Source: an uncultured delta proteobacterium (GTDB taxonomy: Bacteria; Desulfobacterota; Binatia; UBA9968). From it: a stretch of DNA of 64,000 nt. Each line of letters opens with the position of its first letter. Position 1 is the stretch's first letter. Of the stretch, positions 8,778 to 64,000 are shown one piece after another. A model generated the notes under the pieces. It was not told the DNA's origin. It saw nothing but the letters and a program-made list of their open reading frames with translations, and did no database searches. Position numbers and translations under genes: made by a program. Where the stretch lies: NCBI GenBank assembly GCA_963745035.1, contig CAVUVW010000014.1, forward strand, positions 352,001-416,000. Direction: 5' to 3'.

Positions 8778-8788
8778 GGCGCGCTCGC

Positions 8789-34087: not shown

Positions 34088-35059
34088 ATGACGAGACAAA
34101 TTTTTCTGTTGCTGGCTTCTTTGTTTGTGCTGGCGCCTCGGTTGGCTATCGGGCAGGCGACAAAACCGCACCGCGTCGGAGTGATTCATCCCGGCGGCTC
34201 ACAGTACGAGACCCTCGACGGTTTGCGCCAGGGGCTCAAGGAACTCGGCTTAGAGGAAGGTCGACAAATTGTCCTGGATATTCGCGATCTCAAGGGCGAT
34301 GCGTCCGCCGCGGACAAGGAAGCCGCCTCGTTGGAGAAGGAAAATGTCAGCTTGATCTACGCGTTGACGACAACGGTGATCAGCAAGGCGAAGGCGGCGA
34401 CCAGCAAAGTCCCCATTGTATTCGCCATCGGCAGCGATCCGGTTACCGGCGGATTGGTGGACAGCTTCGCCAGGCCCGGCGGCCGGCTGACCGGCGTTCA
34501 TTATCTGGTGCGCGATCTTACGGGTAAACGGCTCGAGATCTTGAAAGAGATCTTGCCCAAGATCAACCGTGTCCTCACCTTCTACGATCCCACCAGTCGC
34601 GTCGCCATTGAGGGGGCAAGCTTGGCGCGCGAAGACGCCAAGCGGCTCGGCATCAAGCTTATCGAACGGCATGTCCGCTCCGTTGAGGAAGTGAAAGCCG
34701 AGATCCAAAAGCTCAAGACTGGCGACGCCGATGCGTTTCTTTTCTCGCCAGACCCAATGGTCGGCAGCCAATCGCAGCTCATCATCGATGTCGCAAAAGC
34801 GAAAAAGCTCCCCACAATGTTTCAAGAGCAAGGCATGGTCGGAAAAGGAGCGCTCGCTGCTTACGGGCAGAATTATCAGGAGATCGGCTGGGTCTCGGCC
34901 AAGTACGTGCAGCAGATTCTCAACGGCGCCAATCCGAGAGACATGAAAATCGAAACCGTGGACAGCGTCGAGCTGGCGATCAATCTACAGACCGCCAAGC
35001 AACTCGGCGTGGCGATTCCACCGCAGGTCCTGGCGCGGGCGAAGAAAGTGATCCGGTGA
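34088..35059 (+). CDS. ABC_sub_bind-type SBP, copy 1 (most divergent)
   Basis: Signal peptide, DPVTGGLVDSFARPGG, GKRLEILKE and INLQTAKQLG...VLARA. Confidence 0.9.
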   Translation: MTRQIFLLLASLFVLAPRLAIGQATKPHRVGVIHPGGSQYETLDGLRQGLKELGLEEGRQIVLDIRDLKGDASAADKEAASLEKENVSLIYALTTTVISKAKAATSKVPIVFAIGSDPVTGGLVDSFARPGGRLTGVHYLVRDLTGKRLEILKEILPKINRVLTFYDPTSRVAIEGASLAREDAKRLGIKLIERHVRSVEEVKAEIQKLKTGDADAFLFSPDPMVGSQSQLIIDVAKAKKLPTMFQEQGMVGKGALAAYGQNYQEIGWVSAKYVQQILNGANPRDMKIETVDSVELAINLQTAKQLGVAIPPQVLARAKKVIR

Positions 35060-36063
35060 TGCGATTTTGGATTAGCGGATCGAGGGCGCGACCGCTAATG
35101 GTCACCCTTTGCGCGTTGCTCCTTCTTTTCTCGGTCCGACTCCAGGCGCAGCAAACCGGCAAAGTTTATCAGCTCGGTTTTCTCTCGCCGGCAACCCCAC
35201 AACCGTCGATCCCTTCCGCTTTAAATCTGGTGCCGAAGCTGCTGCAGGATTCTGGTTACATAGAGGGCCGAAACCTGGAGGTTCATCGGCGCTTCGCGGA
35301 AGGCAAACTCGAGCGGCTCCCGCAACTGGCCAAGGAGTTGGTCGATTTGCGAATGGATGTGATCGTTGCCGTCAGCCCTACCGCCATCAAGCCGGCACAA
35401 GACGCGACGAAGTCCATTCCGATCGTCATGGGCTTCGGCAAAGACCCGGTCAGGGACGGCTTCATCGCCAGCTTCGCCAAGCCCGGCGGCAATATCACCG
35501 GCGTCGTTGTGGCGCCCGAGGATGTGCTTTCCGGCAAGAGATTGGAACTACTCACGGAAGCGGTTCCCCGCGCCAGAACCATCGCTGTGCTCGCGACCGG
35601 AGAAGCCAGCTCTAAGCTGCAAATCGCGGAAGTGCAAAAAATTGCGCCGCAGCTCGAAGTAAAACTGGTCATCGTCGAGCTGCAGAAAACGGATTACGAA
35701 CATGCCTTCGCAACCCTCGCGGCCGCGAAAGCCAATGCGCTTTTTGTTCTAGCCAGTCCTATCCTCAACGCCGGCCGCGACAAGATCATACAACTCGCCG
35801 CCAAGCATAGCCTCCCGACAATCTACGAATGGCCCGAGCAAGCCGAAGTAGGTGGCATGATGGCCTACGGCAGTAGCCTGGCGGGATTATCCGGGCGCGT
35901 CGCGTGGTATGTCGAGCGAATCTTCAAAGGCGCCAAGCCCACCGATTTGCCCGTCGAGCAACCGACCAAGTTCGAGCTGGTGATCAATCTCAAAACCGCC
36001 AAACAAATCGGCCTTACCATTCCCCCGAATGTGCTGGCGCGGGCCGATCGGGTAATTCGGTGA
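35056..36063 (+). CDS. ABC_sub_bind-type SBP, copy 2
   Basis: Family motifs; start overlaps the copy 1 stop (GTGA). Confidence 0.9.
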   Translation: MMRFWISGSRARPLMVTLCALLLLFSVRLQAQQTGKVYQLGFLSPATPQPSIPSALNLVPKLLQDSGYIEGRNLEVHRRFAEGKLERLPQLAKELVDLRMDVIVAVSPTAIKPAQDATKSIPIVMGFGKDPVRDGFIASFAKPGGNITGVVVAPEDVLSGKRLELLTEAVPRARTIAVLATGEASSKLQIAEVQKIAPQLEVKLVIVELQKTDYEHAFATLAAAKANALFVLASPILNAGRDKIIQLAAKHSLPTIYEWPEQAEVGGMMAYGSSLAGLSGRVAWYVERIFKGAKPTDLPVEQPTKFELVINLKTAKQIGLTIPPNVLARADRVIR

Positions 36064-36144
36064 TCTGGCAACGATACAAAATGCGAATGGATCGATTCGT
36101 TCGATACAGAGAATGCAAGTGAAGGTTGGCGCGCCTATCGCGCG

Positions 36145-36646: not shown

Positions 36647-37618
36647 ATGAGAAAACCATTTGTCAGTTTCCTGCTGTGCTCGGCGCTCCTGGCGTCCTGC
36701 CTGCCAGCTTACGCTCAAAAAATTCCCCGCGTCGGTATTCTTCGGGCCGGTACGCCGCTTCCGGCTGGCGAACCGGATGCAGTCTTACAGGCGCTCCGCA
36801 GCCTGGGTTATGTTGAAACGAAGAATATTATCGTGGACATCCGCTATGCCGAGGGTAATCGGAATCGTCTACGTGAATTGGCGATTGAGCTAGTCCAATC
36901 GAAAGTGGACGCGATCTACACTGGCTCCAGTCCAGCCATCTTCGCTCTCAAGCAGGCGACCCAGAGTATTCCCATCATTATCGTTAGCTCTACCGATCCG
37001 GTTCGGTCAGGTATCGTCGCCAGTCTCGCCAACCCCGGCGGCAATATCACAGGCATGTCCCTGATTTCCGCCGACCTGTGGCCTAAACGCCTGGAGATGA
37101 TCAAGGAGATTTTGCCGAAGGCTTCACGCGTGGCCATTTTTTGGAACAAGAGCAACACCGGCATGGCGATCGAAGCCAAAGCGACGCAAGACGCGGCCGT
37201 TCCCATGGGCATAACGTTGCAAGATCGCGGGGTGAAAGATGCGAGCGAGATGGAGGTGGTTTTCGATGCGATGAGCAAAGAGCGCCCGGATGCGTTCCTC
37301 GCCCTCATGGATATCACCCTTGGCGCTCACCGGAAACGCATTTTAGATTTCCTGGCGAAGGATCGAGTTCCGGCCATTTTTGAAAGTAAGGACTGGGTGC
37401 AAGCGGGCGGGCTTATATCCTACGGGCCGGACGGCGCCGATGTCACGCGTCGGGCCGTCATTCAATTGGACAAGATTCTCAAAGGCGCCAGGCCTTCCGA
37501 CATACCCGTCGAACAGCCGACCAAATTCGAGATGGTGATCAACCTCAAGACCGCGCAGCAAATCGGCCTGACGATTCCGCCGAACGTGTTAGCGAGAGCA
37601 GATCGCGTCATCCGGTGA
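36647..37618 (+). CDS. ABC_sub_bind-type SBP, copy 3
   Basis: Family motifs; RBS AAGGAG. Confidence 0.9.
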   Translation: MRKPFVSFLLCSALLASCLPAYAQKIPRVGILRAGTPLPAGEPDAVLQALRSLGYVETKNIIVDIRYAEGNRNRLRELAIELVQSKVDAIYTGSSPAIFALKQATQSIPIIIVSSTDPVRSGIVASLANPGGNITGMSLISADLWPKRLEMIKEILPKASRVAIFWNKSNTGMAIEAKATQDAAVPMGITLQDRGVKDASEMEVVFDAMSKERPDAFLALMDITLGAHRKRILDFLAKDRVPAIFESKDWVQAGGLISYGPDGADVTRRAVIQLDKILKGARPSDIPVEQPTKFEMVINLKTAQQIGLTIPPNVLARADRVIR

Positions 37619-38671
37619 CAGAAGTTACAGGTCCGCAGTCAGAAATCACACGTCCGGCGGAGCGAAGGGAAAATGACGCTGAGTGTTCCCACGAGACAAG
37701 CTAGGTGATCAAGCGAACGAATTGTGCGGACGGTCACTTCGCGGAGGCAAGCATGAATAAATGCATTCTTGTCATCGTTGCGGCGCTTCTAAGTTCCGCG
37801 CACATGGCCTTGGCGCAAAGCCTCGGCAAAATTCCGCGTATCGGCTTTCTCGCCCTGGAAAATCGGCCGTCCGGCCAGGTCGAAGCCTTTCGTCAGGGAC
37901 TTCGCGATCTGGGCTACATAGAGGGACGGACTATCAAAATCGAGTACCGGGCGCATGAGGACCGCGCACAGCTTGGCGCGCTCGCCAGTGAGCTGGTCCG
38001 GGAAAAAGTTGATGTTATCGTCACGCGTGGCGCCGCAAGCCGAGCCGCCCAGACGGTGAAAACGGTGCCGGTTGTGTTCGGTTTCAGTGGCGATCCGGTC
38101 GAAGCGGGGCTCGTGAAGAGCCTGGCGCGACCGGAAGCAAACATGACCGGTATCACTATGTTGGCTTTCGAGTTGGTCGGGAAACGCCTGGAGGTTTTAA
38201 AAGAAAGCGTCCCGAAAGTTTCTCGCGTTGCCGTGCTTTCCAGTCCAGCCCACCCAGGCGAGCAGCGCGAGCTGGCTGAAACTCAGAAGACCGCGCGAAA
38301 TCTCGGCATTATACTTCTCTACCATCAGCTTAATAGCGGGGCTGACGTTAACGCGGCGATTGACGCAACCATTAAGGACAACGCACACGCGCTCCTTGCG
38401 TTTCCGGACCCGGTAACGAACGCGCATCGCGGGCAGATCATGGATTTTGCGATCAAGCATCGACTTCCGAGCGTCTTCGGAACGGGCGAGTTTGTCGAGG
38501 CGGGAGGTCTTATGTCCTATGGCCCAGACCATAATGCATTATGGAGACGGCTCGCCGTGTACGTGGACAAGATCCTCAAGGGCGCCAAACCCGCGGATCT
38601 CCCCGTCGAACAGCCGACGAAGTTCGAGCTGGTGATCAATCTCAAAACCGCGAAGCAGATCGGATTAGCTA

Positions 38672-40141
38672 GTTCTCACTGAAAAAGTAGGGTTGAGACT
38701 GGATTGGAGATCATCAGCGACTGAATCGGTTTTTCAAATGGGAACAATCTTTAGAGTTGATCATCACTCAGGTTCTTTGCCACAGGTTGTAAGAGAAGAT
38801 CGCCCATCCTGTCCAGATAGCCGTTCCTGCAGAGCCCTTGGCCAGCACTCGACCCAAGCCGAACTTGCGTTTCAGCATACTGATGGAGGCTTCTATGCCG
38901 CAGCGAAACCGTTGCAATTGTCTGAACCACTTCTTTCTTTGATGAGTCTTTTCACGGCTGCTCAAGCGGCCCACTTTCGGGATGCCGATTTTCTCAATCC
39001 CGGCCTGGCTGAGTTTCAGCACGTTATCGCAACTGTAGTAACCTCGATCCGCGGCCAGTTCCTTAGGTTTTATCCCCACAGCGGTTTTTGCCTGTCGCAG
39101 TACCGAAAGCAGTTCGGTCCTGTCGCTGGGGTTGCCCCTGTGAACCTCGTAGTGAACGATGACTCCACAACTGTCCTGCACCAACTGCAGCGTGCGCCCA
39201 AACTCCACCGCCTTATTAAGTTTCCCTTTGCGAATCGGCCGCACCTCAGGGTCGTGGAAGGAAACGATCCGCTGCGGGATCGATTTTTGTCCCTCAAGCT
39301 TTTGCTCGGTCTGGCTCAGAATAGTTTGGGCCCGCTCGATTTGCTCCAAAAACTTCCCCTTGAGCTTAGCACACTGATCCGACACCGATGGAAACGCTTG
39401 GCGGCTCTGTCGAACGGTGTGTTGGCAAGCTTGGCCACTTTCTTGAGGATTTTTTTTCCCTTCCTTTGACGCTCTTTGGGCTTGCCCTTGGCCGACTGAC
39501 TCCAGCTAAAAAGCGCCCGCTTGGTGGCCCGCACGTGGCTGGTGATCTTTTGACCCAAAGAGCGCGCCGTACGGGTAAGCGTTTTGATCGCCTGGTGCAT
39601 CACTCCAACATCGTTGGGGTAGCTGATGTGAGCCTCCAGGGTGGTGGAGTCGATCCGAATCCGGCGCGGCTTAATCGATCGACTCTTGATCAACTGCTTG
39701 ACCAAATGCTTGTTGAGACCGCTGATCCGATCTTGGCCAAATCTTTGATTGAGCTTGATCAAAGTCGTAGCGTCGGGGACGGGATCCATCAGGGAAAGAT
39801 GGCAAAAATACCGCCACGGCAGCCTCTCTCGGACTTCCCGCTCCACTTCTTCGTAGCTCAAGCCCCAGCGAAATTTCAGGTACATCATCCGCAGATAGAT
39901 CCCCACCGCCGTGCCGGGACGGCCCAGACTCGGATCGAAAACCTCTTCAAAGGGTCTCAGCAACGGCGCATTGGACAAAAGCTCATCGACCTTTTTAAGC
40001 TCTTCATCCAATTCGTAGAGCGAGGCATCGATAAAACCATCGCCAAAACTCATTTGCTGAGATATGGGTCTGCGCATGATTTACTCTTTACACGATACTA
40101 CTGCTCAGACCCAAGAAAATTTGTACTTTTTCAGTGAGAAC
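38672..40141 (-). mobile_element. 1470-bp insertion sequence (IS5/ISNCY-like) with perfect 18-bp IRs and 6-bp target duplication
   Basis: IR GTTCTCACTGAAAAAGTA / TACTTTTTCAGTGAGAAC. TAGCTA at 38666-38671 and 40142-40147. Confidence 0.93.
38768..40077 (-). CDS. DDE transposase in two ORFs (frameshift near 39400)
   Basis: GRP, PDATTL, RIDST, GRTLQL, AADRGY and RCGIEASISMLKR. Confidence 0.88.
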
Positions 40142-40196
40142 TAGCTATTCCGCCGAATGTGTTGGCGAGGGCGGACAGGGTGATCAAGTAAATCTG

Positions 40197-41175
40197 ATGA
40201 AACGACTGGCTAGCTTGGTACTGGCCGTTCTTCTTTTTCCCTTCGGCTCAGTCGATGCGCAGCAGCCGAAGAAGGTCTCTCGCATAGGTTATCTATCGTC
40301 GGGCTCCACTTCCGGCAGCGTAGCCAGCCTCGAAGCTTTCCACCAAGGTTTACGAGAGTCCGGTTACGTCGAGCGAAAAAATATTATCATCGAGTACAGA
40401 TGGGCCGAGGGTAAACTTGACCGGCTTCCCGAACTTGCAACCGAACTGGTCAACCTTGGCGTGGATATCATCGTGACGGTGGGCACGCCGCCGGTTCTCG
40501 CTGCCAAGCGCGCGACCAACACGATCCCCATCATCGCCGCCAATGCAGATAATCTTGTCGAGTTGGGTGTTGTCGCAAGCCTCGCTCGACCCGGTGGAAA
40601 CGTCACGGGATCGACGAGAGTTGACGCGGATTTCAGCGCAAAGCGGCTGGAACTCCTAAAGGAAACTCTCCCCAAGCTCTCTCGTGTAGCTGTGCTTTCC
40701 CATGGAGCGCTCGGCGCAGATCAGGAGGAATTGAAAGAGATCCAGGCGGCAGCCCGACCTTTAGGAATTCAGATTCATTCCTTCACGACGCAAGAGCCTG
40801 GGCATTTCCTGGCCGCCTATGCTGAAATGCTCAAGCGACGTGCCGATGCTCTTATTGTTTTTACCAGCGCCTTCACCTCGTTCCATCGCAGTCACCTCGT
40901 AGAGCTTGCCGTCAAGAACCGGGCTGCCGACGATGTGTGGCGGAGCTAACTGGACCGACGTTGGTTGCGTCATGTCCTATGGGCCAAACGTACTAGAACT
41001 GTCCCGGCGCGCCGCCGTTTTTGTGGACAAGATTTTGAAAGGAACAAAGCCAGCCGACATTCCAGTCGAGCAGCCGACGAAGTTCGAGTTCATCATCAAC
41101 CTCAAAGCAGCCAAGCAGATCGGCCTGACGATTCCGCCGAACGTGCTAGCGCGGGCGGACAAAGTGATTCGGTGA
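40197..41175 (+). CDS. ABC_sub_bind-type SBP, copy 5; frameshift near 40920
   Basis: ORFs 40134..40949 and 40906..41175 join into a full family member. Confidence 0.85.
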
Positions 41176-42206
41176 TTCCATTTTGGATTTTAGATTTTGC
41201 ACTTTCGATTAGCGGAGCGAGAGCGCGACTTCCGTTGGTTTTGCTTTGCGCCTTGCTCGTTGCGTTTAGCGTGCCCGGCGAAGCTCAGCAATCATTGGGC
41301 AAACTCCCACGAATAGGATTCATCTCAGGGAGCGGCGATCCGTCCAATCCCGCCGTCTCAGAAAGAGCGTTTCGCCAAGCTCTGAGAGATCTCGCCTATG
41401 TCGAAGGCAGAAACCTGGTCCTTGACGTCCGCTATGCCGAGGGAGACCGAAATCGTATTCCAAGCATTGTGGCAGAACTGGTCCAGCTAAGAGTCGATGC
41501 GATCGTCACGGGCAATCTAACCGCCGTCCGCGCAGCCAAACATGCGACCCAGACGATTCCGATCGTAATGGTCACCAACGCCGATCCGGTTGCAACACAA
41601 CTCATCGACAGTCTGGCGCGTCCCGGCGGAAATATCACCGGCCTCACGAATCTCAGTCGAGACTTGAGCGCGAAGCGCCTCGAGCTGCTCAAAGAGATCG
41701 TCCCGAACCTTTCGCGTGTTGCCATTCTCTGGGACGATTCTAATGAAGGCTCTGTCATCGGCTTCAAGGAGTATGAAGCGGCTGCGCGTCCTTTGAAGCT
41801 GCACATTGAATCGCTGGCCGTGCGTGGTGCCGAGCCGGATATTGAGCTCGCGGTTGCATCCGTGAAAGGCCGAGCTAACGGCTTTATTCCCATCAGAAGC
41901 GCCGTAATCCTCCGCTATCCCGCCAGGATCGCTCGGCTCGCGTTGACTCACCGGCTGCCTTCGATTCACGACGGAAGTAACTACGTCGAGGCTGGCGGAT
42001 TGGCATCCTATTCATCGAATGATGCTGACCTTTTCAGACGAGCCGCCGTATTTGTAGATAGAATTCTAAAAGGCACAAAACCTTCCGACTTGCCGGTAGA
42101 ACAACCGACGAAGTTTGAGCTGGTGATCAATCTTAAAACCGCCAAGCAAATCGGCCTCACTATTCCGCCGAACGTGCTGGCCAGAGCGGATAGAGTCATC
42201 CGATGA
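41172..42206 (+). CDS. ABC_sub_bind-type SBP, copy 6
   Basis: GTG overlaps the copy 5 stop; family motifs. Confidence 0.88.
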   Translation: MIPFWILDFALSISGARARLPLVLLCALLVAFSVPGEAQQSLGKLPRIGFISGSGDPSNPAVSERAFRQALRDLAYVEGRNLVLDVRYAEGDRNRIPSIVAELVQLRVDAIVTGNLTAVRAAKHATQTIPIVMVTNADPVATQLIDSLARPGGNITGLTNLSRDLSAKRLELLKEIVPNLSRVAILWDDSNEGSVIGFKEYEAAARPLKLHIESLAVRGAEPDIELAVASVKGRANGFIPIRSAVILRYPARIARLALTHRLPSIHDGSNYVEAGGLASYSSNDADLFRRAAVFVDRILKGTKPSDLPVEQPTKFELVINLKTAKQIGLTIPPNVLARADRVIR

Positions 42207-42542: not shown

Positions 42543-43520
42543 ATGAAACATCTGCTCGCAGCACTTGCCAGCCTCGCAATGGCCGCGTGCGGCGCCACCA
42601 ATCTGAGCAACACCAGTGGAGTCGTGAAAATCACCGGGCTCGGTAGCCATGACGGCGAGCTCTGTTCCTTCGATCGCGCGATCATTTTCGAGGACCCCGA
42701 CGGCACGCGAATCCTTTATGATGTCGGCCGCACGGTGCGCGGCGGCAACGATCCGCGGCTGGGCAAAATCGACGCGGTGCTCCTTACCCATGTGCATGGC
42801 GATCATATCGGTGACTCGCACCAGCCCTCCGCGAACGCCGGCAGTTGCCCAAAACCCGACGTGTCGGTCAATGCTGCGCCCAACTCCAACACCGTGAATG
42901 TCGTACTTGCCAAGCAGGCGCCTCTGATCGTAGGCGGCGAAATGCACTTTTTCTTCTCGGCGAAACTCAAGTCCCTCGGCGGGGACCCGGCCAGGCTGGT
43001 GCGGTTGGTGCGCTTCGGCGCGACCACTTCGATCGGAAAGGTCGTGGTCGCGGGCGTTCCCGCCTCTCACACCAACGGCCTCCCGCCGGCCTTCCTCCCC
43101 AAGGAGCAACAGCAGCTCTTAGCGGCGAGCGGCCTTACCGCCTACGTCGGACCGCCGGGCGGATTCGTTCTGCGCTTCAGCAACGGCCTCGTCGCTTACC
43201 TGTCCGGCGATACGGGCATTACTGCCGAGCAGGAGCTTGTGGTACGCCGGCACCATGGTGCCAACGTCGTGGTGATGAGCGTCGCTGGCGCTCCCAATAT
43301 GACCGGGCCGAGCGAGGCGGCATTCGTCGTAAACGATCTGGTTCGGCCGAACTCGGTCATCGTCACGCATGTCAACGAGGCAGCGACGGTGAACGGCAAA
43401 GTGGTTCCGACAAGCAAGACCGCCGCCTTTCAGAAGGCGGTCACAGTGCCGGTGCACGTGCCGCTCAGCGGCAAGACAATGGAATTCGACGGCAGCGGGC
43501 GCTGCTCCTCGAATTGCTGA
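42543..43520 (+). CDS. Metallo-beta-lactamase-fold hydrolase, probable lipoprotein
   Basis: Lipobox-like MAAC, THVHGDH, SH, YLSGDTG and VTH; RBS GGAGG. Confidence 0.85.
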   Translation: MKHLLAALASLAMAACGATNLSNTSGVVKITGLGSHDGELCSFDRAIIFEDPDGTRILYDVGRTVRGGNDPRLGKIDAVLLTHVHGDHIGDSHQPSANAGSCPKPDVSVNAAPNSNTVNVVLAKQAPLIVGGEMHFFFSAKLKSLGGDPARLVRLVRFGATTSIGKVVVAGVPASHTNGLPPAFLPKEQQQLLAASGLTAYVGPPGGFVLRFSNGLVAYLSGDTGITAEQELVVRRHHGANVVVMSVAGAPNMTGPSEAAFVVNDLVRPNSVIVTHVNEAATVNGKVVPTSKTAAFQKAVTVPVHVPLSGKTMEFDGSGRCSSNC

Positions 43521-52762: not shown

Positions 52763-53749
52763 ATGAATCAAAACATTTTTCGTTTCATGCTTTGCGGAAT
52801 GCTCTTGGCGTTTTGCCTCCCCGCCGAGGCGCAGCAGACAGGAAAAATCTTCCGCATCGGTTACCTGGATACCAGCACTGCTTCCGGTAGCGCAGTCCAC
52901 ATTGATGCCTTCCGCCAGGAGATGCGCAAGCTTGGATGGATCGAGGGAAAGAATATCACTATCGAGTATCGGTTTGCCGAGCAAAAAAATGAGCGCTTGC
53001 CCGAGCTTGCGGCGGACTTGGTTCGTCTTAAGGTTGATCTGATTGTGGTCGTGGGGACGCAAGCGTCTTTGGCGGCAAAGCGAGCAACTGCGACCATCCC
53101 CATCGTGATGGCGAGCGTTGCGGACCCTGTGGCGGCGGGCCTGGTTGCCAGTCTGGCGCGGCCGGGAGGCAATGTGACCGGGACTATCGGGTTTATCGCC
53201 TGAGCTAAATACCAAAAGGTTGGAGATACTTAAGGACGCGGTCCCCAAGCTCGTCCGTGTTGGACTTTTTGGCTGTCGGGACGCGGCATAGGACAAGAAC
53301 TCCAAATGAAAGAGCTTAGGCCTGCGGCTCTGGCACTGAAGCTAAATTGGAGGAGATCGAGACTCAACCCGACGCCAAAGGTTTAGAGAGCGCCTTTCAA
53401 ACCGCCAAGCAGAAGCAAGTCAACGCGATTATGACGACCACCGGTACTTCCTTTTTCGCTGAAAGAAAGCGGATCGTCGAGCTTGCCGCCAAATACCGGC
53501 TGCCTGCTATTTACACACAGAAGGAGTTTGTCGTTGCGGGCGGTCTCATTCCTATGGGGTGGATCTCTTGAGCTCTGCCGACGCGCGGCGGGTTACGTGG
53601 ACAAAATCTTGAAAGGCGCCAAACCGGCTGATTTGCCGGTGCAGCAGGCAACCAAGTTTGAATTCATCATCAACCTGAACGCGGCAAAGCAAATCGGTCT
53701 GACAATTCCAGCGCGCGTGCTCGAGCGGGCGAATCAGGTGATTAAATAG
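52763..53749 (+). CDS. ABC_sub_bind-type SBP, copy 12; several frameshifts (error or pseudogene)
   Basis: Fragments 52763..53203, 53347..53571 and 53483..53749 are collinear. Confidence 0.8.
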
Positions 53750-55485: not shown

Positions 55486-55542
55486 GCACGGATTGAATGG
55501 AGTGAGCGCAACATTCCTTTGCACATCGCTTCGCTTGCCTGC

Positions 55543-55665
55543 ATGAAATATTTGCCCGGGCAACCGACGAAGTTTGAGTTCGTGGTCAATCTCAAAACAG
55601 CGAAGCAAATCGGCCTGACGATTCCGCCGAACGTGCTGGCGCGGGCGGACCGGGTAATTCGGTGA
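55543..55665 (+). pseudogene. Orphan intact copy of the SBP 3' end (possible mini-ORF)
   Basis: [40 protein letters not shown]. Confidence 0.8.
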
Positions 55666-55696: not shown

Positions 55697-56687
55697 ATGA
55701 AAATCCAAAATCCACAATGGCTGGGGGCTTTTACATTCGCCTTCGCGCTAGTCGGGGCCGCGGTTCAGGCTCAGCAGCCGACTAAAATCCCCCGGATCGG
55801 GTATCTCATCACTTCGTCGCCTGCGGCGATCGCGCCGCGCATGGAAGCATTTCAGCAAGGGCTGCGTGATCTCGGCTATGTCGAGGGGAAAAATATTGTC
55901 ATCGAGCACCGCTATGCAAACGGACGATCCGATCAACTCCGTGTGCTCGCCGCCGAACTGGTGCAACTGAACGTAGACATCATCGTTTCCAGCGGTCCGA
56001 CGGCGACGCGCCCCGCTAAGGAAGCAACCTCCAAAATCCCTATTGTCATGACCTTCGATGATGATCCAATCGGCAGCGGCTTCGTCGCCAGTCTCGCCCG
56101 GCCGGGTGGGAACGTCACCGGTTTGTCGACGCTTTCACCGGAGATCAGCGGAAAGCAACTGGAGCTGTTGAAAGAGATCGTGCCCAAGATCACTCGAGTA
56201 GCTGTGCTGGGAACTTTGACGAGGGAAGGCACCGCGCAGAATCTAAAAGAGATGGAACTCGCCGCTGGAGCATTCGGACTGAAGCTTAAATATTTGGACA
56301 CGCAAAATGTCAAGGACATCGAGGGTAGCTTCGAAAACGCGAGTAAAGGGCGCGCCGAGGCCGTCCTCATATTGCAGAGCCCGGTGTTCAATTCGCAACG
56401 ACCACAGATCGCGGAGCTCGCGCTAAAGAGGCGGCTTCCCGCGATCTATCCGCGACGAGAATTCGTCGAAGACGGCGGTCTGATGAGCTACGGCGTGAGC
56501 ATTCTCGATTTGGACCGCCGCGCCGCGATTTACGTGGACAAGATCCTCAAGGGTGCCAAGCCCGCCGATCTCCCAGTCGAGCAGCCGAACCAAGTTTGAG
56601 CTGATGATCAATCTAAAAGCCGCCAAGCAAATCGGCCTGATCATTCCTCCCAACGTCCTGGCGCGTGCGGACAAAGTAATACGGTAA
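55697..56687 (+). CDS. ABC_sub_bind-type SBP, copy 14; frameshift near 56590
   Basis: Family motifs; C-terminal tail in the next frame. Confidence 0.88.
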
Positions 56688-56758
56688 GGAGTAAGTGGTG
56701 AGGAGTGAGGCGAAAAACAAATTTTGGATTTTCGATTGAAACCCAAGAGAACAAACCG

Positions 56759-57859
56759 ATGAACGCAATGCCTTCGAAGTCTCTTTCCGACAATCCAAAA
56801 CCTGTCCCTTCGATAAACTCAGGGCAGGCTCTGAGCCATGCCGAAGGATCGGCAATCGAAAATCGAAAATTGGTGGGGATTGTTGCTCTCGCTGTCGCAT
56901 TCATAACGTGTGGGGCCTTGGCCACGGCGCAGCAGCCGAAGAAAGTCTCCCGAATAGGGTATCTTTCGAATACCGATGCAGCTACTGACTCCGCCCGCGC
57001 CGAGGGAATTCGGCTGGCTCTGCGCGAGCTTGGCTACATAGAAGGACAGAACATCGCCATCGAGTACCGATATGCGGAGGGGAAGGTCGATCGGGCTCCT
57101 GAGCATGCGGCGGAGCTTGTGCGTCTGAAGGTTGATATCATCGTGGTAGCGTCAGGGGACCCGTGGATCCGGGCGGCCAAGAATGCAACCAAGACGATTC
57201 CCATCGTCATGATGGGCCATAGGGTCCGATCCTGTTAGGGCAGGCTTCGTTGAAAGCCTTGCTCGTCCCGGCGGCAATGTCACCGGCCTCACAGCCCTTA
57301 CCAGAGAACTAGGCGGGAAGCGGCTGGAGCTGCTCAAAGAAGCGGTACCCAAACTTGCCCGTGTCGCGGTTCTCTACGATCCGGCCAATCCGCCCAGTGT
57401 ACGCGAGGTGAAAGAGGTTCTCCCAGTCGCGGCGCGTGCGCTGGGGTTGACTATTCAACCTTGGGAGGTACGAGCTGCGGGCGGTTTCGAGAGGGTATTT
57501 GCTGCGATAAACAAGGAGCGCCCGGATGGACTCTACTCGTTCGCCGCGGGCCCGGTAATGCGTCCTAACCAAAAACGAATCGTGGGCTTTGCGTTAAAGA
57601 GCCGGTTACCGTCGGTGTACAGCAGCAGAGAAGCTGTAGAGGCCGGCGGGCTCATGTCCTACGGCCGGGACCTCGCGGACAGCTACCGGCGCGTAGCCAC
57701 CTACGTGGACAAGATTCTGAAAGGCGCCAAGCCCGGCCGACCTGCCGGTGGAGCAGCCGACCAAGTTCGAGTTGGTGATCAATCTGAAAACAGCGAAGCA
57801 GATCGGCGCTGACGATTCCGCCGAACGTGCTGGCGAGGGCGGATAGGGTGATTCGCTAA
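56759..57859 (+). CDS. ABC_sub_bind-type SBP, copy 15; frameshifts, start uncertain
   Basis: Mature region is very similar to copy 8 ([19 protein letters not shown]). Confidence 0.82.
56800..56848. repeat. REP-like palindromic insert in the leader of SBP copy 15
   Basis: ccttcg...ctcag ggcaggct ctgag...cgaagg hairpin sits inside an AATCGAA/AATCCAA heptamer tract. Confidence 0.55.
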
Positions 57860-57892: not shown

Positions 57893-58345
57893 TTACGGAC
57901 CAGAAGGCGAACTGAGCTTGGCCTCGAGGGTGGCGACTTCTTTTACGACGAGCCAGTCCTCCGGATTAAGCACGCTTACCTGAGAACTATTAAAGTCCTT
58001 TGTGTTTCGAGTAATGAGATGATTCACGGAGACAGATTCAGCACTGGCGAGTTGAATGTTATCCTCGAAGTCGGTCCCGGCAGAGGTGAGCGCGCGGTCG
58101 AGAATGATTGGAGTCAGTGGAACCAGCTGAAGCCCTTTCAAGATCTCCCGCGCATCGGCGCGAGCAGTATTCTCATCGACGACGCGTCGCCTAAAGAAGT
58201 AGATCAAGGGGAGAGTAAGCGCCGAAGACCAACTCTCGATTTCTTGCGATCGGCGGGCCAAGTTAAGCACCCGGAGACTTTGGCTCCAACCGTTTCGTTT
58301 CGTCATCACGTCAATGAAGACATTAACGTCGATGAAGATTTTCAA
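57893..58345 (-). CDS. PIN-domain toxin (VapC-like)
   Basis: IFIDVNVFID, DFEDNIQ and LITRNTKDF. Confidence 0.88.
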   Translation of the reverse strand: MKIFIDVNVFIDVMTKRNGWSQSLRVLNLARRSQEIESWSSALTLPLIYFFRRRVVDENTARADAREILKGLQLVPLTPIILDRALTSAGTDFEDNIQLASAESVSVNHLITRNTKDFNSSQVSVLNPEDWLVVKEVATLEAKLSSPSGP

Positions 58346-58820: not shown

Positions 58821-59799
58821 ATGAAGAGAAAAATTATCGTCCTTGCGCTTTGCGCCGTGCTGTCATCGCTTGGCTTGTCCGCTGAGGCACAGCAGTCCGT
58901 GACGGTCCCCCGGATTGGGTTTCAATCCGCAGGTAGCAGGGAGGCCTGTTAGGAAGGAGTTTGTCCGTGGACTCCGTGATTTGGGATATGTGGAAGGACA
59001 AAACATCCTTATCGAGTGGCGATTTGCGGAAGGGAAACTCGATCAGGTCCCGCGCAACGCGGCGGAGCTAGTCCGCGCAAAGGTCGAAGTCATTGTTACT
59101 GGTGGTTCGACGGATACCCGTGCTGCCAAGGAAGCAACCAACACGATTCCCATTGTGATGGTCCAGGATAACGATCCTGTTGGGAGCGGGTTCGTCGCCA
59201 GCCTGGCGCGACCCGGCGGAAACATCACGGGATTGTCCACCCTTCGTGCGGAGACTAGTGGAAAACGGCTGGAGCTTTTGAAGGAGATTGTTCCTAAGCT
59301 TTCGCGCGTGGCGATTCTCGGGGACCTCAAGCAATCCAGGCAACGCCCAAGGACTAAAAGAGACGGAACTCGCTGCTTCAGCGTTCAAAATACAACTTCA
59401 ATACCTGAACGTACAAAAGTCTCAAGGATTTAGAGAGTGCATTTCGAGAGGTGCGCAAGGGAGCTGCTGACGCGGTTCTCGATCTGGGAGGCCCGGTATT
59501 AACCGTTCAGCGAAGAGCGCTTGTAGACCTCGCGGCAAAGAGCCGGCTCCCGATGATGTACGTCAGGCGAAGTTTGTCGAAGCGGGCGGCCTTATCAGCT
59601 ATGGCGTGAACCTTTCCGACCTACAGCGGCGCGCCGCTACCTATGTGGACAAGATTTTGAAAGGCGCCAAGCCCTGCTGAATTGCCAGTAGAGCAGCCGA
59701 CCAAGTTCGAGCTGTTCATTAATCTCAAAGACAGCGAAGCAGATCGGTCTGACGATTCCGCCGAATGTGCTGTCGCGGGCGGATCGGGTGATCAAATAA
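58821..59799 (+). CDS. ABC_sub_bind-type SBP, copy 16; several frameshifts
   Basis: Signal peptide at 58821 and collinear fragments with family motifs. Confidence 0.8.
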
Positions 59800-59850
59800 A
59801 CAGTGATCTGTGGTCAGTCGCCAGCGCTCAGCAAAAACATCGAACAAATC

Positions 59851-60834
59851 ATGAATAGAAAAATCTTTGGTACTTCACTGTGCGCTCTGCTCTTTGTGTT
59901 TAGCCCCTCAGTTGATGCGCAGCAGCCAGTCAAGGTCCCCCGAATAGGATTCCTGGGTTTTCCCTCCCCTTCCGCTAACGCGGCACGTAACGAAGCATTC
60001 CGTCAGGGTCTCCGCGAGCTCGGGTACGTGGAGGGGAAGAACATTGTCATTGAGTGGCGCTTTGCAGAAGGAAAACTGGATCGCGTTTCGGCTCTCGCGG
60101 CCGAGCTAGTCCGTCTCAAGGTAGATGTCATCGTCACCGGTGGTGCGGGTTCAACGCGTCCTGCCAACGAAGCGACGAATACGATTCCTATCGTAATGGC
60201 GCAGGATCCCGATCCGGTCGGAAATGGTTTCGTCGCCAGTCTTGCACGACCCGGCCGGAACATTACCGGATTGTCGACCCTTGCGCCGGAGCTAAGCGGC
60301 AAACAACTGGAGCTTCTGAAGGAGATCGCTGCAAAGCTCTCGCGCGTGGCCGTCCTTGGGACTTCAACCAGCCCGGCCAACGCACAATCGTTAAGAGAAG
60401 TGGAACTCGCCGCAGGCGCATTAAATGTGCAGCTGCAGTACCTAGACATACGAAGTCCGAATGATATTGAGCTCGCATTCCAGGAGGCGCGCAAGACGCG
60501 CGTTGACGCATTCCTCGCACTAATCGGACCTGTGCTTGCCAATCAGCGAACACAAATTGCGGACCTTGCGGTAAAGAGCCGGCTCCCGGCGATATATGGC
60601 CAGCCAGAATATGTGGAAGCCGGGGGACTCATGAGCTACGCCGTAAGCTTTACCGACTTGCACCGGCGCGCTGCCACGTATGTGGACAAGATTTTGAAGG
60701 GCGCCAAGCCCGCCGATCTCCCGGTGGAGCAGCCCACGAAATTCGAGTTGATCATCAATCTGAAAACCGCCAAGCAGATCGGACTCACCATTTCGCCGAA
60801 CTTGCTGGCGCGAGCGGACAGGGTGATCAAGTGA
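59851..60834 (+). CDS. ABC_sub_bind-type SBP, copy 17
   Basis: Family motifs. Confidence 0.9.
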   Translation: MNRKIFGTSLCALLFVFSPSVDAQQPVKVPRIGFLGFPSPSANAARNEAFRQGLRELGYVEGKNIVIEWRFAEGKLDRVSALAAELVRLKVDVIVTGGAGSTRPANEATNTIPIVMAQDPDPVGNGFVASLARPGRNITGLSTLAPELSGKQLELLKEIAAKLSRVAVLGTSTSPANAQSLREVELAAGALNVQLQYLDIRSPNDIELAFQEARKTRVDAFLALIGPVLANQRTQIADLAVKSRLPAIYGQPEYVEAGGLMSYAVSFTDLHRRAATYVDKILKGAKPADLPVEQPTKFELIINLKTAKQIGLTISPNLLARADRVIK

Positions 60835-61874: not shown

Positions 61875-61984
61875 CTATAGGCGTGAGGACTCAGGTGATA
61901 GGCGACCTTACGGATGTCCATCAAAACGACCGTTAGTAGAATCGGCAGCATAGCGGCAAAGATGATAAGGTAGCAGCGTTCACT

Positions 61985-64000
61985 ATGCCCAACTGGAAAG
62001 ACAAAATTCGCAACTTCTTCTCATTGCGCAAAACCGGGGCGCGCCGGCGCGAGCGGTTGGTGCGCGAGTACTTTTTGATCTCCGTGGCGCTGATCGGCGG
62101 AGGATTGATCACGAGCGGGCTGATCGAGATCTACTACCGCTACCACGAGAGCCGCGATCAGCTCGCGCGCTTGCAAAAAGAGATCGCCGCGGGCGCTGCC
62201 TACAAGATCGAGCACTTCGTTCAAGAGATTCACAACATTCTCAAAGGCGCCACGAAAAGCCGCGACATCGCGCCAAAGGGTCTCACCGCCGATTTCCGCT
62301 TCGAGCTGGAAAAGCTGTTGTTGATCGCGCCGGCGGTCACCGAAGCGGTGGCGCTCAATGAAAACGGTTTGATCCAAGTTCAAGCTTCGCGCCTGCGCAC
62401 GGTATTGCCGGACGCTAAAAAAGATCTTTCAACCTCGGCGCCGTTTCAGCGCGCGCGGCAAGGCAAGTCCTTCTACGGGCCGGTCTATTTCGTGCGCGGC
62501 TCGGAACCCTACATGACGATCGCCGTCCCCATCGAGCGTTTTGCCGGCGACGTCATCGGCGTGCTGCAGGCGGAAGTGAATCTCAAATACATCGGCGACG
62601 TGGTTTCGAGCATCAGCATCGGCAAAGCGGGCTATGCCTATGCCGTGACCCGAGGGGGCGAGCTCATCGCCCACCCCGATATCAGCTTGGTCTTGCAGCG
62701 CCGCAGCGTCAGCCCGCTTCAGGTCGTAAAAGCCGCTTTCGAAAGCGCTCCCGGTCCCAACGCCCAAAACGCCATCGTCGCGGCGAATATTCAAGGGAAA
62801 GAGGTTCTGAGCTCCTTCGCGCTCATAAAAGACCTGGACTGGGCAGTCATCGTCGACCTGCCCGTCGAAGAAGCCTACGAAGCGCTCTACGCCTCCATCA
62901 TGCGCACCTCTACTTTGTTCTTGATCGGCCTCGGCATGTCGCTGATCGCGAGTTTTTTCCTCGCGCGCCGGGTCGTGCAACCGATGCGGGTCTTGCGCGA
63001 GGGCGTGGAGCGCATCGGCACCGGCGATCTCGGCTATCGTCTCGATCTCAAGACCGGCGATGAAATCGAAGTGCTGGCGGATGAGTTCAACAAGATGACC
63101 TCGCAGCTCCAGGAGTCCTACATAAACCTGGAGCAGAAAGTCGAAGACCGCACCCGTGAGCTGACCGAGTCTCTCGAGCAACAGACGGCCACGAGCGAGA
63201 TTTTAGGCGTCATCGCCAGCTCGCCCACCGACGTGCAGCCGGTCTTGGCGGTGGTCGCCGAAAACGCGGCGCGCTTGTGCGATGCCAGCGATGCACAGAT
63301 ACGTCTGGTCGAGAATGATGGGACGAAATTGGTCGCTTCGTTCGGTTCGACTCCGGCACCTGACTTTCGTCCGACCAACCCGCGCCACCCGTCTGGCCGC
63401 GCGATATTGGAACGACGAACGGTTCATGTCGAAGACCTCGCCGAAGCGGCAAAGACCGAGTTTGCAGACAGCCAGGAATTGCAGCAGCGCACGGGCACGC
63501 GAACCTTTCTTAGCACGCCGATGCTCAGGGAAGGAAACCCAATCGGTCTAATAAACATCCGGCGTACCGAAGTTCGGCCGTTCTCGGACAAACAAATCGC
63601 GCTGCTAAAAACCTTTGCCGATCAGGCGGTTATCGCCATCGAAAATGTGCGTCTGTTCCAGGAGATCCAGGATAAGAACCGCGAGCTCACAGAGTCATTG
63701 GAGCAGCAAACTGCAACGAGCCAGGTTTTGGGCGTTATCAGCAGCTCGCCGCGAGACCTGCAACCGGTGTTCGAAAGCCATGCTCGCCAACGCGACACGA
63801 TTGGGCAGCTCCGATTACGGCGCGATTTTTAGATTTGATGGGGAGGTTTTCAGCCTGACCACGGCTCAATATGTTTCGCCGCACATGACGGTATTGGCAG
63901 ACCGAACCTTTCCGCCGGATTCGACAACCGCCGTGGGCCGCGTCGGCCTGGAAAAAAAGATCGTGCACATCCCCGATGTTAGCGCCGATCCGAATTGGAA
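61985..64000 (+). CDS. Membrane sensor TM-dCache-TM-HAMP-GAF-GAF...; frameshift near 63775; runs off the window, output domain unseen
   Basis: Two TMs flank a Cache-like region ([20 protein letters not shown]). HAMP (GDL...[13 protein letters not shown]) and repeated EQQTATS...[14 protein letters not shown] units follow. Confidence 0.88.

What the first reader, a model, noticed from the sequence alone, without database searches (positions are those of the whole stretch)
34088..64000. 28-kb array of 18 transporter-less ABC_sub_bind paralogues ending at a Cache-HAMP-GAF sensor: candidate diversified receptor repertoire
Seen: 18 co-oriented paralogues of about 325 aa with cleavable signal peptides. 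No permease or ATPase gene lies anywhere in the window, and a membrane sensor follows directly in the same orientation. Blocks such as [11 protein letters not shown], [15 protein letters not shown] and the roughly 50-aa tail [47 protein letters not shown] are strongly conserved. The segments after the first beta strand, after DVIV and after VAVL differ among copies. Known: type I periplasmic binding proteins bind ligand through such cleft loops, and some SBPs signal through membrane kinases (LuxP/LuxQ, TorT/TorS). Inference: these are interchangeable sensing heads with a constant docking surface and variable pockets, feeding one or a few shared transducers rather than acting as transport components.
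Basis: partly seen in the sequence, partly recalled or inferred. Interest (0 to 1): 0.9.

Follow-up and report, generated by a model that had tools for sequence, protein, structure and literature searches.

The report
Binding-protein array feeding a membrane sensor
A soil bacterium carries about 80 copies of a periplasmic binding protein with no transporter of their own, and gene order across many bacteria and archaea suggests that these proteins hand their signals to a membrane sensor encoded just downstream.

Summary
Window 34.0-61.9 kb carries 19 co-oriented PF04392 (ABC_sub_bind) units, about 17.4 gene equivalents. Eleven are uninterrupted, one is cut by an IS element, and the rest are frameshifted or fragmentary. 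Several of those frameshifts look like assembly indels. The array ends at a dCache-HAMP-GAF-GAF histidine kinase.

The genome holds about 80 gene equivalents of this SBP, one cognate-type ABC permease/ATPase locus and two sensors of this dCache type.

The main new result is gene order. A PF04392 gene sits directly upstream of this dCache-HAMP sensor type, in the same orientation:
- in 20 of 20 loci examined across the genus;
- in several other families of the phylum, often with a 4-bp overlap;
- in 69 of 74 evaluable loci whose record titles name many bacterial phyla and archaea.

The sensor's output domain varies (kinase, MCP, STAS). No ABC permease or ATPase lies in any of these loci. Sixteen loci outside the genus have tandem SBP arrays.

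Among the paralogues, variation sits in the residues that follow the β-strands, including known specificity positions. The tail is kept by purifying selection but is conserved family-wide.

Physical binding is not shown. This is a new variant of SBP-dependent receptors, with an extreme expansion of the SBP partner.

The parts
34088..35059 (+). PF04392 SBP copy 1, divergent, intact
   Evidence: Pfam E 2.7e-56; HMM positions 2-327
35056..36063 (+). SBP copy 2, intact; 4-bp overlap with copy 1
   Evidence: Pfam E 1.2e-43
36647..37618 (+). SBP copy 3, intact
   Evidence: Pfam E 7.7e-51
37705..38682 (+). SBP copy 4, C-terminus cut by the IS insertion
   Evidence: Pfam profile positions 17-279 of 293; own HMM 7-313
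38690..40130 (-). IS element; its transposase is split over two frames (DUF772 and DDE_Tnp_1); boundaries approximate
40134..41172 (+). SBP copy 5, one frameshift in this assembly
   Evidence: HMM 6-244 and 242-327 in two frames
41232..42206 (+). SBP copy 6, intact
   Evidence: HMM 6-327
42543..43520 (+). Secreted metallo-beta-lactamase-fold protein interleaved in the array
   Evidence: Lactamase_B_2 E 3.4e-10
44061..45044 (+). SBP copy 7, intact
   Evidence: Pfam E 1e-52
45041..46069 (+). SBP copy 8, intact; 4-bp overlap with copy 7
   Evidence: HMM 2-327
46112..46525 (-). PIN-domain gene on the opposite strand
   Evidence: PF01850 E 7e-11
47103..47933 (+). NMT1/THI5-type SBP; its C-terminus is out of frame
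   Evidence: PF09084 E 3.4e-19
48133..49113 (+). SBP copy 9, intact
   Evidence: HMM 1-327; translation
49149..50138 (+). SBP copy 10, intact; reference copy for the model and the alignments
   Evidence: AF2 pLDDT 92.4; TM 0.88-0.90 to 3LKV
50139..51142 (+). SBP copy 11, one frameshift in this assembly
   Evidence: HMM 1-66 and 67-327 in two frames
51236..52216 (+). NMT1/THI5-type SBP, intact
   Evidence: PF09084 E 5.3e-17
52730..53746 (+). SBP copy 12, several frame changes; public contigs carry an extra A behind 53343
53979..54962 (+). SBP copy 13, intact; its orthologues are the sensor-adjacent copy in two other genomes of the genus
   Evidence: Pfam E 8.9e-55; tree
55486..55662 (+). C-terminal SBP remnant
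   Evidence: HMM 294-327
55697..56684 (+). SBP copy 15, frameshift near the C-terminus
   Evidence: HMM 12-297 and 295-327
56702..57809 (+). SBP copy 16, frameshifted; public contigs lack one base at 57220; a tail piece lies at ~58697-58774
57893..58345 (-). PIN_3-domain gene between the body and the tail piece of copy 16
   Evidence: PF13470 E 1.3e-12
58903..59677 (+). SBP copy 17, fragmentary in this assembly; a public contig with no substitutions lacks one base at 59327 and at 59415
59803..60834 (+). SBP copy 18, intact
   Evidence: HMM 1-327, 532 bits
60831..61874 (+). SBP copy 19, next to the sensor; N-terminus uncertain (public contigs differ by indels at 60889, 60929, 60941)
   Evidence: Pfam E 5.9e-51
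61985..64000 (+). Sensor histidine kinase: TM, dCache_1 (residues 56-290), TM, HAMP, GAF, GAF, then HisKA/HATPase beyond the window; one frame break near 63.7 kb in this assembly

Best explanation
The paralogues are secreted PF04392 solute-binding proteins that work as detachable ligand-recognition subunits of a membrane receptor, not as transporter parts. The receptor's periplasmic dCache_1 domain and HAMP linker are encoded directly downstream. I infer that a ligand-loaded SBP docks on the dCache domain and switches the cytoplasmic output. Here the output is a GAF-GAF histidine kinase; in other lineages it is an MCP, a STAS domain or a PAS-kinase. The SBP-plus-dCache-HAMP pair is an old, widespread two-gene input module. 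In this soil lineage the SBP side has been multiplied and its cleft loops diversified: about 17 gene equivalents beside this sensor and about 80 in the genome, against two sensors. The result would be a repertoire of specificities that converge on very few transducers.

Shown: the gene family, the fold, the absence of a transporter, the conserved gene order, the pattern of variation and purifying selection.

Inferred: physical docking, and that copies far from a sensor use it in trans.
For: 1. Family and fold. Pfam PF04392 E-values run from 1e-41 to 1e-56. The AF2 model has pLDDT 92.4 and TM 0.88-0.90 to 3LKV, 3LFT and 6HNI.

2. No transporter.
- The genome gives 123 PF04392 HMM pieces, about 80 gene equivalents, 44 of them full length in one frame.
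- There are 12 BPD_transp_2 pieces at 6 loci.
- Only one permease is of the cognate type. It lies with an ATPase beside a divergent double-domain SBP at C14:48.4-53.5 kb.

3. Gene order.
- In 20 of 20 loci from 17 genomes of the genus, the sensor has a co-oriented SBP gene beside it.
- The two genus genomes first scored as lacking the sensor do have it, with an SBP or SBP remnants upstream.
- Both sensors of this type in the window's genome have an SBP upstream.
- In other families of the phylum, sensors only 25-36% identical still have the SBP directly upstream, often overlapping by 4 bp: L052, L053, L055, L056, L072, L075.
- Fifteen weaker, generic dCache hits have none.
- Across all species genomes, 69 of 74 evaluable loci among the best 80 of 223 relatives have it. 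Record titles name Desulfobacterota, Planctomycetota, Chloroflexota, Spirochaetota, Bacillota, Elusimicrobia, Omnitrophota and archaea.

4. The association follows the dCache-HAMP input module while the outputs differ: HK with receiver, PAS-HK, STAS, MCPsignal and HisKA_2.

5. There are 0 ABC permease or ATPase homologues in all 134 loci scanned; the 80 cross-phylum loci alone total 577,582 bases.

6. Tandem SBPs upstream of one sensor occur outside the genus. Sixteen loci have at least 3 full copies, with a median pairwise identity of 53%.

7. Variation among the 44 paralogues is higher in the 8 residues after β-strands (2.10 bits, n=87) than in the 6 residues before them (1.15 bits, n=70; Mann-Whitney p = 1.8e-8). 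The positions equivalent to VC_1101 A246 and Y262, which set specificity (PMC6816091, passages), fall in variable segments.

8. Synonymous sites are saturated everywhere (pS 0.64-0.80). pN is 0.09-0.11 in the tail and 0.20-0.53 elsewhere, so the copies are old and under purifying selection.

9. The sensor's periplasmic domain lacks the carboxyl-binding part of the dCache amino-acid motif in 18 of 18 aligned sequences (motif from PMC8915833, passages). Among close relatives it is more conserved (83-95% identity) than the GAF domain (46-68%).
Against: - No physical interaction has been shown.
- The two largest arrays (C2:0-27 kb, about 21 equivalents; C17:177-205 kb, about 23) have no sensor in their flanks. 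Their link to a sensor rests on homology alone.
- The ratio of about 80 SBPs to 2 sensors is extreme for a docking model.
- One cognate-type ABC permease/ATPase exists and could be shared.
- The characterised members of PF04392 are importer SBPs.
- The strongly conserved tail is also conserved in those transport SBPs, so it does not mark a sensor-specific surface.
- Five of 74 loci lack the adjacency.
- The loci were found through two sensor peptide patterns, and related genomes are not independent samples.
- Taxon labels of metagenome bins may be wrong.
- No fusion of this SBP subfamily to an output domain appeared among the best 120 of 302 longer relatives; all listed were double SBPs.
- The sensor-adjacent SBP belongs to different paralogue clades in different genomes. 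This fits interchangeability but also fits a loose, non-specific linkage.
- A third of the window's copies are broken in this assembly.
Confidence: 0.55

Rival explanations
1. Orphan transport receptors. The paralogues are ordinary importer SBPs that all share the single PF04392-type ABC permease/ATPase of the genome (C14:48.4-50.2 kb). This would resemble what has been proposed for the many Bug/TctC proteins of Bordetella, which share few membrane components. The neighbouring sensor would only regulate them or be unrelated.
For: - The characterised family members are importer SBPs for Trp, Tyr and Phe.
- One cognate-type permease and ATPase exist in the genome.
- The family-wide conserved tail is shared with transport SBPs.
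- The large arrays on C2 and C17 are not next to sensors.
Against: - That permease locus has its own membrane-anchored double-domain SBP. It is far from the array family: 96-131 bits against the array HMM, where array copies score above 350.
- No ABC permease or ATPase lies in any of 134 SBP-sensor loci across phyla.
- The adjacency follows the dCache-HAMP module whatever the output, including MCP and STAS outputs, which do not control transcription directly.
- The array copies score 131-153 bits against the NCBIfam TrpX model, whose cut-off is 390.
Confidence: 0.2
2. Functional but indirect coupling. SBP and sensor act in the same pathway without docking. For example, the SBPs might buffer, sequester or deliver a periplasmic compound that the dCache domain binds itself. 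Alternatively, the sensor's pathway might control expression of the SBP genes.
For: - The gene order is conserved, and conserved order by itself cannot tell docking from a shared pathway.
- The dCache model is closest to chemoreceptor domains that bind small ligands directly: PctA/B/C, Mlp37 and Tlp3, with TM 0.65-0.72.
Against: - The carboxyl-binding residues of the amino-acid motif are missing in 18 of 18 sensors.
- Overlapping stop and start codons between SBP and sensor genes suggest coupled synthesis.
- In every SBP-receptor pair listed in the passages of the 2021 review that I read (PMC8050422) whose SBP gene lies beside the signalling gene, the SBP interacts with the receptor's ligand-binding domain.
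Confidence: 0.15
3. Decaying duplications. The arrays are largely non-functional remnants of runaway tandem duplication in a large soil genome.
For: - Eight of 19 units in the window are cut, frameshifted or fragmentary in this assembly, and many more on C17.
- An IS element and PIN genes are inserted in the array.
Against: - pN is well below the saturated pS along the whole length.
- Public Illumina contigs differ from the window by single-base indels at several break points, so many breaks are probably assembly errors.
- Frame breaks also occur in housekeeping genes of the window.
- The expansion is kept in 18 of 18 genomes of the genus searched; this count includes the unpublished G005.
Confidence: 0.05

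Closest known systems
LuxP/LuxQ (Vibrio) and HptA/HptS (Staphylococcus): SBP-dependent sensor kinases with dCache-like periplasmic domains
   Same: A secreted SBP encoded beside a membrane kinase whose periplasmic domain is of the dCache type. There are no transporter genes in the locus, and the SBP is the ligand-binding part (PMC8050422, passages).
   Different: The SBP family differs: PF04392 here, against Peripla_BP_4 and SBP_bac_11. PF04392/ABC_sub_bind does not occur in the main text of that review (0 occurrences). The known systems have one SBP per sensor. Here there are arrays of 3-4 in other phyla and about 17 beside this sensor. Binding is not shown here.
BasB/BasT and CosB/CosT of Halobacterium salinarum; NspS/MbaA of Vibrio cholerae
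   Same: An SBP gene lies next to a receptor with a dCache-like domain, and the output is not a kinase (MCP or GGDEF/EAL). This shows that one SBP-plus-sensor input principle serves several outputs (PMC8050422). One search shows the same spread of outputs here.
   Different: Different SBP families (Peripla_BP_6, OpuAC, SBP_bac_8). These are single pairs, with no expansion.
Bug (TctC-family) proteins of Bordetella, including BctC/BctE
   Same: [quoted passage not shown] One member, BctC, also signals to a kinase, BctE (PMC8050422). That the Bug proteins far outnumber their membrane partners is recalled and comes from no call.
   Different: The family is TctC (PF03401), not PF04392. I did not test whether Bug genes show a conserved position upstream of one sensor type.
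TrpX / CD0873 / VC_1101 (PF04392 importer SBPs; PDB 3LFT, 6HNI, 3LKV)
   Same: Same Pfam family and fold: profile E 1.8e-52 to 5e-38 and TM 0.87-0.90. They share the same conserved PGGN(I/V)TG block and C-terminal tail.
   Different: Those are encoded with a permease and an ATPase and import aromatic amino acids. The window's copies have no such neighbours, score far below the TrpX cut-off and vary at the specificity positions.

Membership tests
Pfam PF04392 (ABC_sub_bind) | Score above the Pfam gathering cut-off (25.9 bits) over most of the profile | tested here: met
   141-191 bits for 7 window copies; 123 pieces in the genome
Pfam PF04392 (ABC_sub_bind) | Two-lobe class I / cluster B binding-protein fold as in 3LKV, 3LFT and 6HNI | tested here: met
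   AF2 pLDDT 92.4; Foldseek TM 0.87-0.90, E 1e-22 to 1e-25
TrpX tryptophan ABC transporter SBP (NCBIfam NF041285, equivalog) | Score at or above the curated cut-off of 390 bits | tested here: not met
   131, 153 and 104 bits
TrpXYZ-type ABC importer | SBP gene encoded with a BPD_transp_2 permease and an ABC ATPase | tested here: not met
   No permease in the window. Only one such locus in the genome, beside a divergent double SBP. 0 hits in 134 related loci.
SBP-dependent receptors (LuxPQ / HptAS / BasBT class) | SBP gene beside the gene of a membrane signalling protein, not beside transporter genes | tested here: met
   20 of 20 genus loci; 69 of 74 evaluable loci across phyla; no ABC genes
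SBP-dependent receptors (LuxPQ / HptAS / BasBT class) | Physical complex of the SBP with the receptor's periplasmic domain | not testable with these tools
   Needs purified proteins or a solved complex. The one prediction job gave no verdict (see Tried and rejected).
SBP-dependent receptors (LuxPQ / HptAS / BasBT class) | Signal output depends on the ligand-loaded SBP | not testable with these tools
   Needs genetics or biochemistry
dCache_1 (PF02743) sensor domain | Pfam score above cut-off and a double-PDC fold behind a long N-terminal helix | tested here: met
   94.2 bits against a cut-off of 45; AF2 pLDDT 87.4; TM 0.65-0.72 to PctA, Mlp37 and Tlp3
dCache_1AA (amino-acid-binding dCache) | AA_motif Y121-x4-R126-x-W128-Y129 ... 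Y144 ... D173 (PctA numbering; PMC8915833) | tested here: not met
   The R and W positions are never R or W in 18 of 18 aligned sensors. The D173 position is mostly E. I mapped the register by hand from the Mlp37 alignment.
Bug-like orphan SBP expansion | Many SBP paralogues against very few cognate membrane components | tested here: met
   About 80 gene equivalents against 1 cognate-type permease. The expansion is found in 18 of 18 genus genomes searched, G005 included.
Bug-like orphan SBP expansion | Membership of the TctC family (PF03401) | tested here: not met
   The only SBP family matched is PF04392, plus a weak sub-threshold Peripla_BP_6 match

The most novel reading that the evidence does not exclude
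A receptor class found in bacteria and archaea and, as far as my searches reach, not described. A dCache-HAMP 'stalk' has no ligand specificity of its own and is served by exchangeable PF04392 'heads'. In this soil lineage the heads have grown into a repertoire of about 80 diversified binding proteins converging on two transducers. This would be a bacterial counterpart of a multigene chemoreceptor family, in which specificity evolves by duplicating a soluble subunit and not the receptor.
Probability: 0.35. Interest if true: 0.9.

Novelty: new variant of a known kind. Interest (0 to 1): 0.75.

Why it matters
- SBP-stimulated receptors are known from a handful of single pairs. The 2021 review counts thirteen SBP families, and PF04392 does not occur in its main text.
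- If the present reading is right, PF04392 adds a further family with a very wide distribution, including archaea by record title. It would show a new way of widening sensory range: multiplying the soluble ligand-binding subunit in front of one transducer.
- It gives a testable function to tens of thousands of metagenomic 'ABC transporter substrate-binding protein' annotations that have no transporter.
- It makes an open question directly testable with a defined protein pair: what large orphan SBP families are for.

Tried and rejected
- Complex prediction. I folded the sensor's periplasmic domain (residues 50-303, alignment A3) with the adjacent SBP (alignment A2). The verdict was 'no answer': scores 0.43, 0.24 and 0.08 against a mark of 0.32, and the controls were not run. 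I count this neither for nor against binding.

- Gene conversion as the cause of the conserved tail. Rejected, because synonymous differences in the tail are as saturated as elsewhere (pS 0.64-0.77). dN/dS above 1 in the variable loops could not be tested, because dS is saturated.

- Rosetta-stone fusions. The best 120 of 302 longer relatives carry only binding-protein Pfam families and are mostly about 580-740 aa, consistent with double SBPs. No output domains were found. The tool warns that this is weak evidence. A PF04392-like N-terminal domain fused to a PAS-kinase does exist in the genome (C14:515367-519146), but it is a distant relative (29 bits).

- Link to 'EQQTATS' GAF sensors. The other GAF ORFs with this motif (C11:202-222 kb, C14:115-124 kb) do not carry this dCache domain. 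The link is to dCache-HAMP.

- Promoter and terminator scan of 44.5-64 kb. There were fewer sites than in shuffles, so it was not informative.

- Reads. Only Logan contigs were available. Contigs from RNA libraries lie on 56009-56274, 57049-57151 and 58244-58459 with no mismatches, but such libraries may hold DNA. I do not claim expression. Depth and gaps in cover were not interpreted. The habitat labels (soil, rhizosphere) come from runs holding 0.55-0.62 of the sampled words.

- Literature searches. I found no description of a PF04392 expansion or of a PF04392-dCache pair in 'PF04392', 'COG2984', 'Binatota' + 'substrate-binding', the SBP signal-transduction terms or the SBP/Cache/tandem terms.

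Full report
**What is in the window**

On the + strand between 33,980 and 61,874 there are 19 units of one gene family. Seven tested copies match Pfam PF04392 (ABC_sub_bind) at E 1e-41 to 1e-56, with no other family above its cut-off. Measured against an HMM built from nine intact window copies, the units add up to 17.4 gene equivalents.

The state of the 19 units in this assembly is as follows:
- Eleven are full length in a single frame.
- One is truncated by an IS element, whose transposase carries DUF772 and DDE_Tnp_1.
- Five are frameshifted.
- One is fragmentary.
- One is a 59-residue C-terminal remnant.

Interleaved with them are a secreted MBL-fold gene, two NMT1/THI5-type SBP genes and two PIN-domain genes on the opposite strand. 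The translations show hydrophobic N-termini ending in A-x-A/QQ.

The array ends 110 bp before a gene for a membrane sensor with dCache_1, HAMP and GAF domains. Beyond the window this gene continues with a second GAF and HisKA/HATPase.

**How far the breaks can be trusted**

The genome is a 28-contig assembly, 92.6% complete with 5.8% contamination. Housekeeping genes in the first 10 kb of the window (ahcY, metK, kpsF/kdsC, named from their translations, which is recalled) also change frame.

Public soil and rhizosphere short-read contigs match the array region, and one of them has no substitutions over 787 bases. They differ from the window by single-base indels at 53343, 57220, 59327, 59415, 60889, 60929 and 60941. 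These positions lie at or near the frame breaks and in the odd N-terminus of the last copy. I therefore treat many of the 'pseudogenes' as probable assembly errors. The IS insertion and the small remnant are more likely real.

**The family in the genome and its relatives**

The whole genome gives 123 PF04392 HMM pieces, or about 80 gene equivalents of the array subfamily. Besides the window, the main arrays are at C2:0-27 kb (about 21 equivalents) and C17:177-205 kb (about 23), with smaller groups elsewhere. Forty-four copies are full length in one frame, with pairwise identity of 31-85% and a median of 50%.

Against this the genome has only 12 BPD_transp_2 pieces at six loci. Only one permease is of the type that goes with PF04392. 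It sits with an ABC ATPase next to a divergent, membrane-anchored double-domain SBP at C14:48.4-53.5 kb. A second double SBP at C14:806.8 kb has only a truncated ATPase beside it.

The expansion is shared by 18 of 18 genomes of the genus searched, with up to 218 candidate pieces in one genome. It is found in 4 of 5 genomes of one sister family and in 0 of 7 genomes of another (the genus count includes the unpublished G005). The nearest named relatives in the protein collection are metagenome bins labelled Candidatus Binatia.

**The decisive evidence: gene order**

I searched with the sensor's periplasmic domain.

Within the genus:
- It was found in 28 of 31 genomes, G000 included, at E <= 1e-30.
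- In all 20 loci that I enlarged, from 17 genomes, a co-oriented PF04392 gene lies beside the sensor. It is usually directly upstream, in arrays of one to eight.
- Two of the three genomes without a hit turned out to have more divergent sensors of the family. One has an intact SBP upstream and the other has SBP remnants. The third has only a weak generic dCache hit.
- The window's genome has a second sensor of the family on contig C5, and it too has an SBP upstream.

Across the phylum, in a sample of 301 genomes:
- Sensors only 25-36% identical, from other families, again have the SBP directly upstream, in several cases with overlapping stop and start codons.
- Fifteen weaker, generic dCache hits have none, which serves as a rough control.

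Across one genome per species of bacteria and archaea:
- A pattern scan returned 223 relatives of this sensor domain.
- Among the best 80, 74 could be evaluated, and 69 have a co-oriented PF04392 gene ending within 700 nt of the dCache domain's start. That is, it ends at or next to the sensor's start codon.
- The record titles name Desulfobacterota, Planctomycetota, Chloroflexota, Spirochaetota, Bacillota, Bacteroidales, Elusimicrobia, Omnitrophota, candidate-phyla bins and several archaea. Some bin labels may be wrong.

Three further points about these loci:
- Ten sensors from ten such lineages all share dCache_1-HAMP but differ downstream: a hybrid kinase, PAS-kinases, a STAS domain, an MCP signalling domain and an archaeal HisKA_2 kinase.
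- None of the 134 loci I held contains a homologue of the ABC permease or of any ABC ATPase. The same ATPase query finds 91 ORFs in the window's genome.
- Sixteen loci outside the genus have at least three full SBP genes in the 4 kb upstream of the sensor, diverged to a median of 53% identity.

Tandem SBPs in front of one sensor are therefore a general property of the module. The window shows its extreme form.

**The proteins**

The SBP model (pLDDT 92.4) superposes on the Phe-, Trp- and Tyr-binding proteins 3LKV, 3LFT and 6HNI at TM 0.87-0.90. Profile E-values against them run from 1.8e-52 to 5e-38.

The segments after β1, after DVIV, after IPIV, after VAVL, after the next strands and around residues 250-258 and 267-271 are variable.

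I had no coordinates, so I used the model's strand positions as a proxy. The eight residues after strands lie on the cleft side in this fold. They have a mean entropy of 2.10 bits (n=87), against 1.15 bits (n=70) for the six residues before strands (p = 1.8e-8).

The two residues reported to set specificity in VC_1101, CD0873 and SP1069 (PMC6816091, passages) map to variable positions 252 and 269 of the reference copy. This mapping comes from my hand reading of the HMMER alignment.

Synonymous differences are saturated along the whole gene, tail included (pS 0.64-0.80). Non-synonymous differences drop to 0.09-0.11 in the tail. The copies are therefore old, and the tail is held by selection on the protein, not by gene conversion.

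The tail is also conserved in the transport SBPs and, in a different version, in the sensor-adjacent SBPs of other phyla. It cannot be claimed as a sensor-docking surface.

A tree shows the window's copies scattered among copies from the other arrays. The sensor-adjacent copy of different genomes falls in at least five paralogue clades.

The sensor's periplasmic domain models as a canonical dCache (pLDDT 87.4). It is closest to amino-acid chemoreceptor domains, with TM 0.65-0.72. However, it lacks the R and W of the amino-acid motif in 18 of 18 aligned sequences (motif from PMC8915833, passages). Among close relatives it is better conserved than the cytoplasmic GAF domain: 83-95% against 46-68%.

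**Reading**

The most economical explanation is an SBP-dependent receptor of the LuxP/LuxQ, HptA/HptS or BasB/BasT kind (PMC8050422, passages). It would use an SBP family that does not occur in that review's main text (0 occurrences), with the SBP side multiplied.

Docking itself is inferred, not shown. The single prediction job gave no verdict.

The main rival is a Bug-like pool of transport SBPs sharing the one permease. It is weakened by the cross-phylum absence of ABC genes beside the module and by the MCP and STAS outputs. It is not excluded, particularly for the large arrays that lie far from any sensor.

**Novelty**

Five literature searches and the review's text gave no description of a PF04392 expansion or of a PF04392-dCache pair. 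Supplementary files could not be read.

I class this as a new variant of a known kind. The interest is high because the prediction is concrete, widely distributed and testable with two purified proteins.

Noticed in passing
window 365-2358, 8298-9767: Housekeeping genes change reading frame in this assembly. By their translations they look like ahcY, metK and kpsF/kdsC. This points to single-base indel errors in the assembly, not to real pseudogenes.
   Followed up: partly
window 38690-40130 (- strand): An IS element is inserted into the 3' end of SBP copy 4. Its transposase (DUF772 and DDE_Tnp_1) is split over two overlapping frames.
   Followed up: partly
window 46112-46525 and 57893-58345 (- strand): Two PIN-domain genes, probably toxin-antitoxin toxins, sit inside the array on the opposite strand. 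The second lies between the body and the detached tail piece of SBP copy 16.
   Followed up: no
window 47103-47933, 51236-52216; G000 C14:417052-418868: NMT1/THI5-type binding proteins are interleaved in the array and follow the sensor. Similar C-terminal sequences flank the C2 and C17 arrays. This may be a second transporter-less SBP family in the genome.
   Followed up: partly
window 52281-52652 and 43595-43945; G000 C14:137821-138222: Small ORFs with no Pfam match share a C-terminal motif (a Cys, then YDPLG-like residues, then an Arg-rich stretch). They recur beside or inside SBP arrays.
   Followed up: no
G000 C14:44505-53493 and C14:806819-811338: Two membrane-anchored proteins each carry two PF04392 domains in tandem. 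One lies with the genome's only cognate-type permease and ATPase, what look like a STAS-like ORF and a GAF-phosphatase ORF, and a SulP-type transporter; these three names are read from the translations and were not tested against any family library. The other lies with a truncated ATPase and a SulP-type transporter.
   Followed up: partly
G000 C14:515367-519146: A 1260-aa ORF has a weak PF04392-like periplasmic N-terminus (29 bits). From its translation, which I did not test against Pfam, it continues with a membrane segment, several PAS-like repeats and a histidine-kinase core. It would be a fused form of SBP-type sensing in the same genome.
   Followed up: no
G000 C11:202334-221586 and C14:114850-123718: There are clusters of ORFs carrying the 'EQQTATS' motif in front of GAF domains, many of them in broken frames. 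They lack the dCache domain of the window's sensor.
   Followed up: partly
window 62132-62893 compared with 63180-63660: Among close relatives, the sensor's periplasmic domain and HAMP are more conserved (83-95% identity) than its first GAF domain (46-68%). From general knowledge, which comes from no call, extracytoplasmic sensor domains are usually the less conserved part.
   Followed up: partly
loci L076, L078, L083 (about 6.7-7.7 kb): In some Desulfobacterota loci a further PF04392 gene lies downstream of the sensor on the opposite strand.
   Followed up: no
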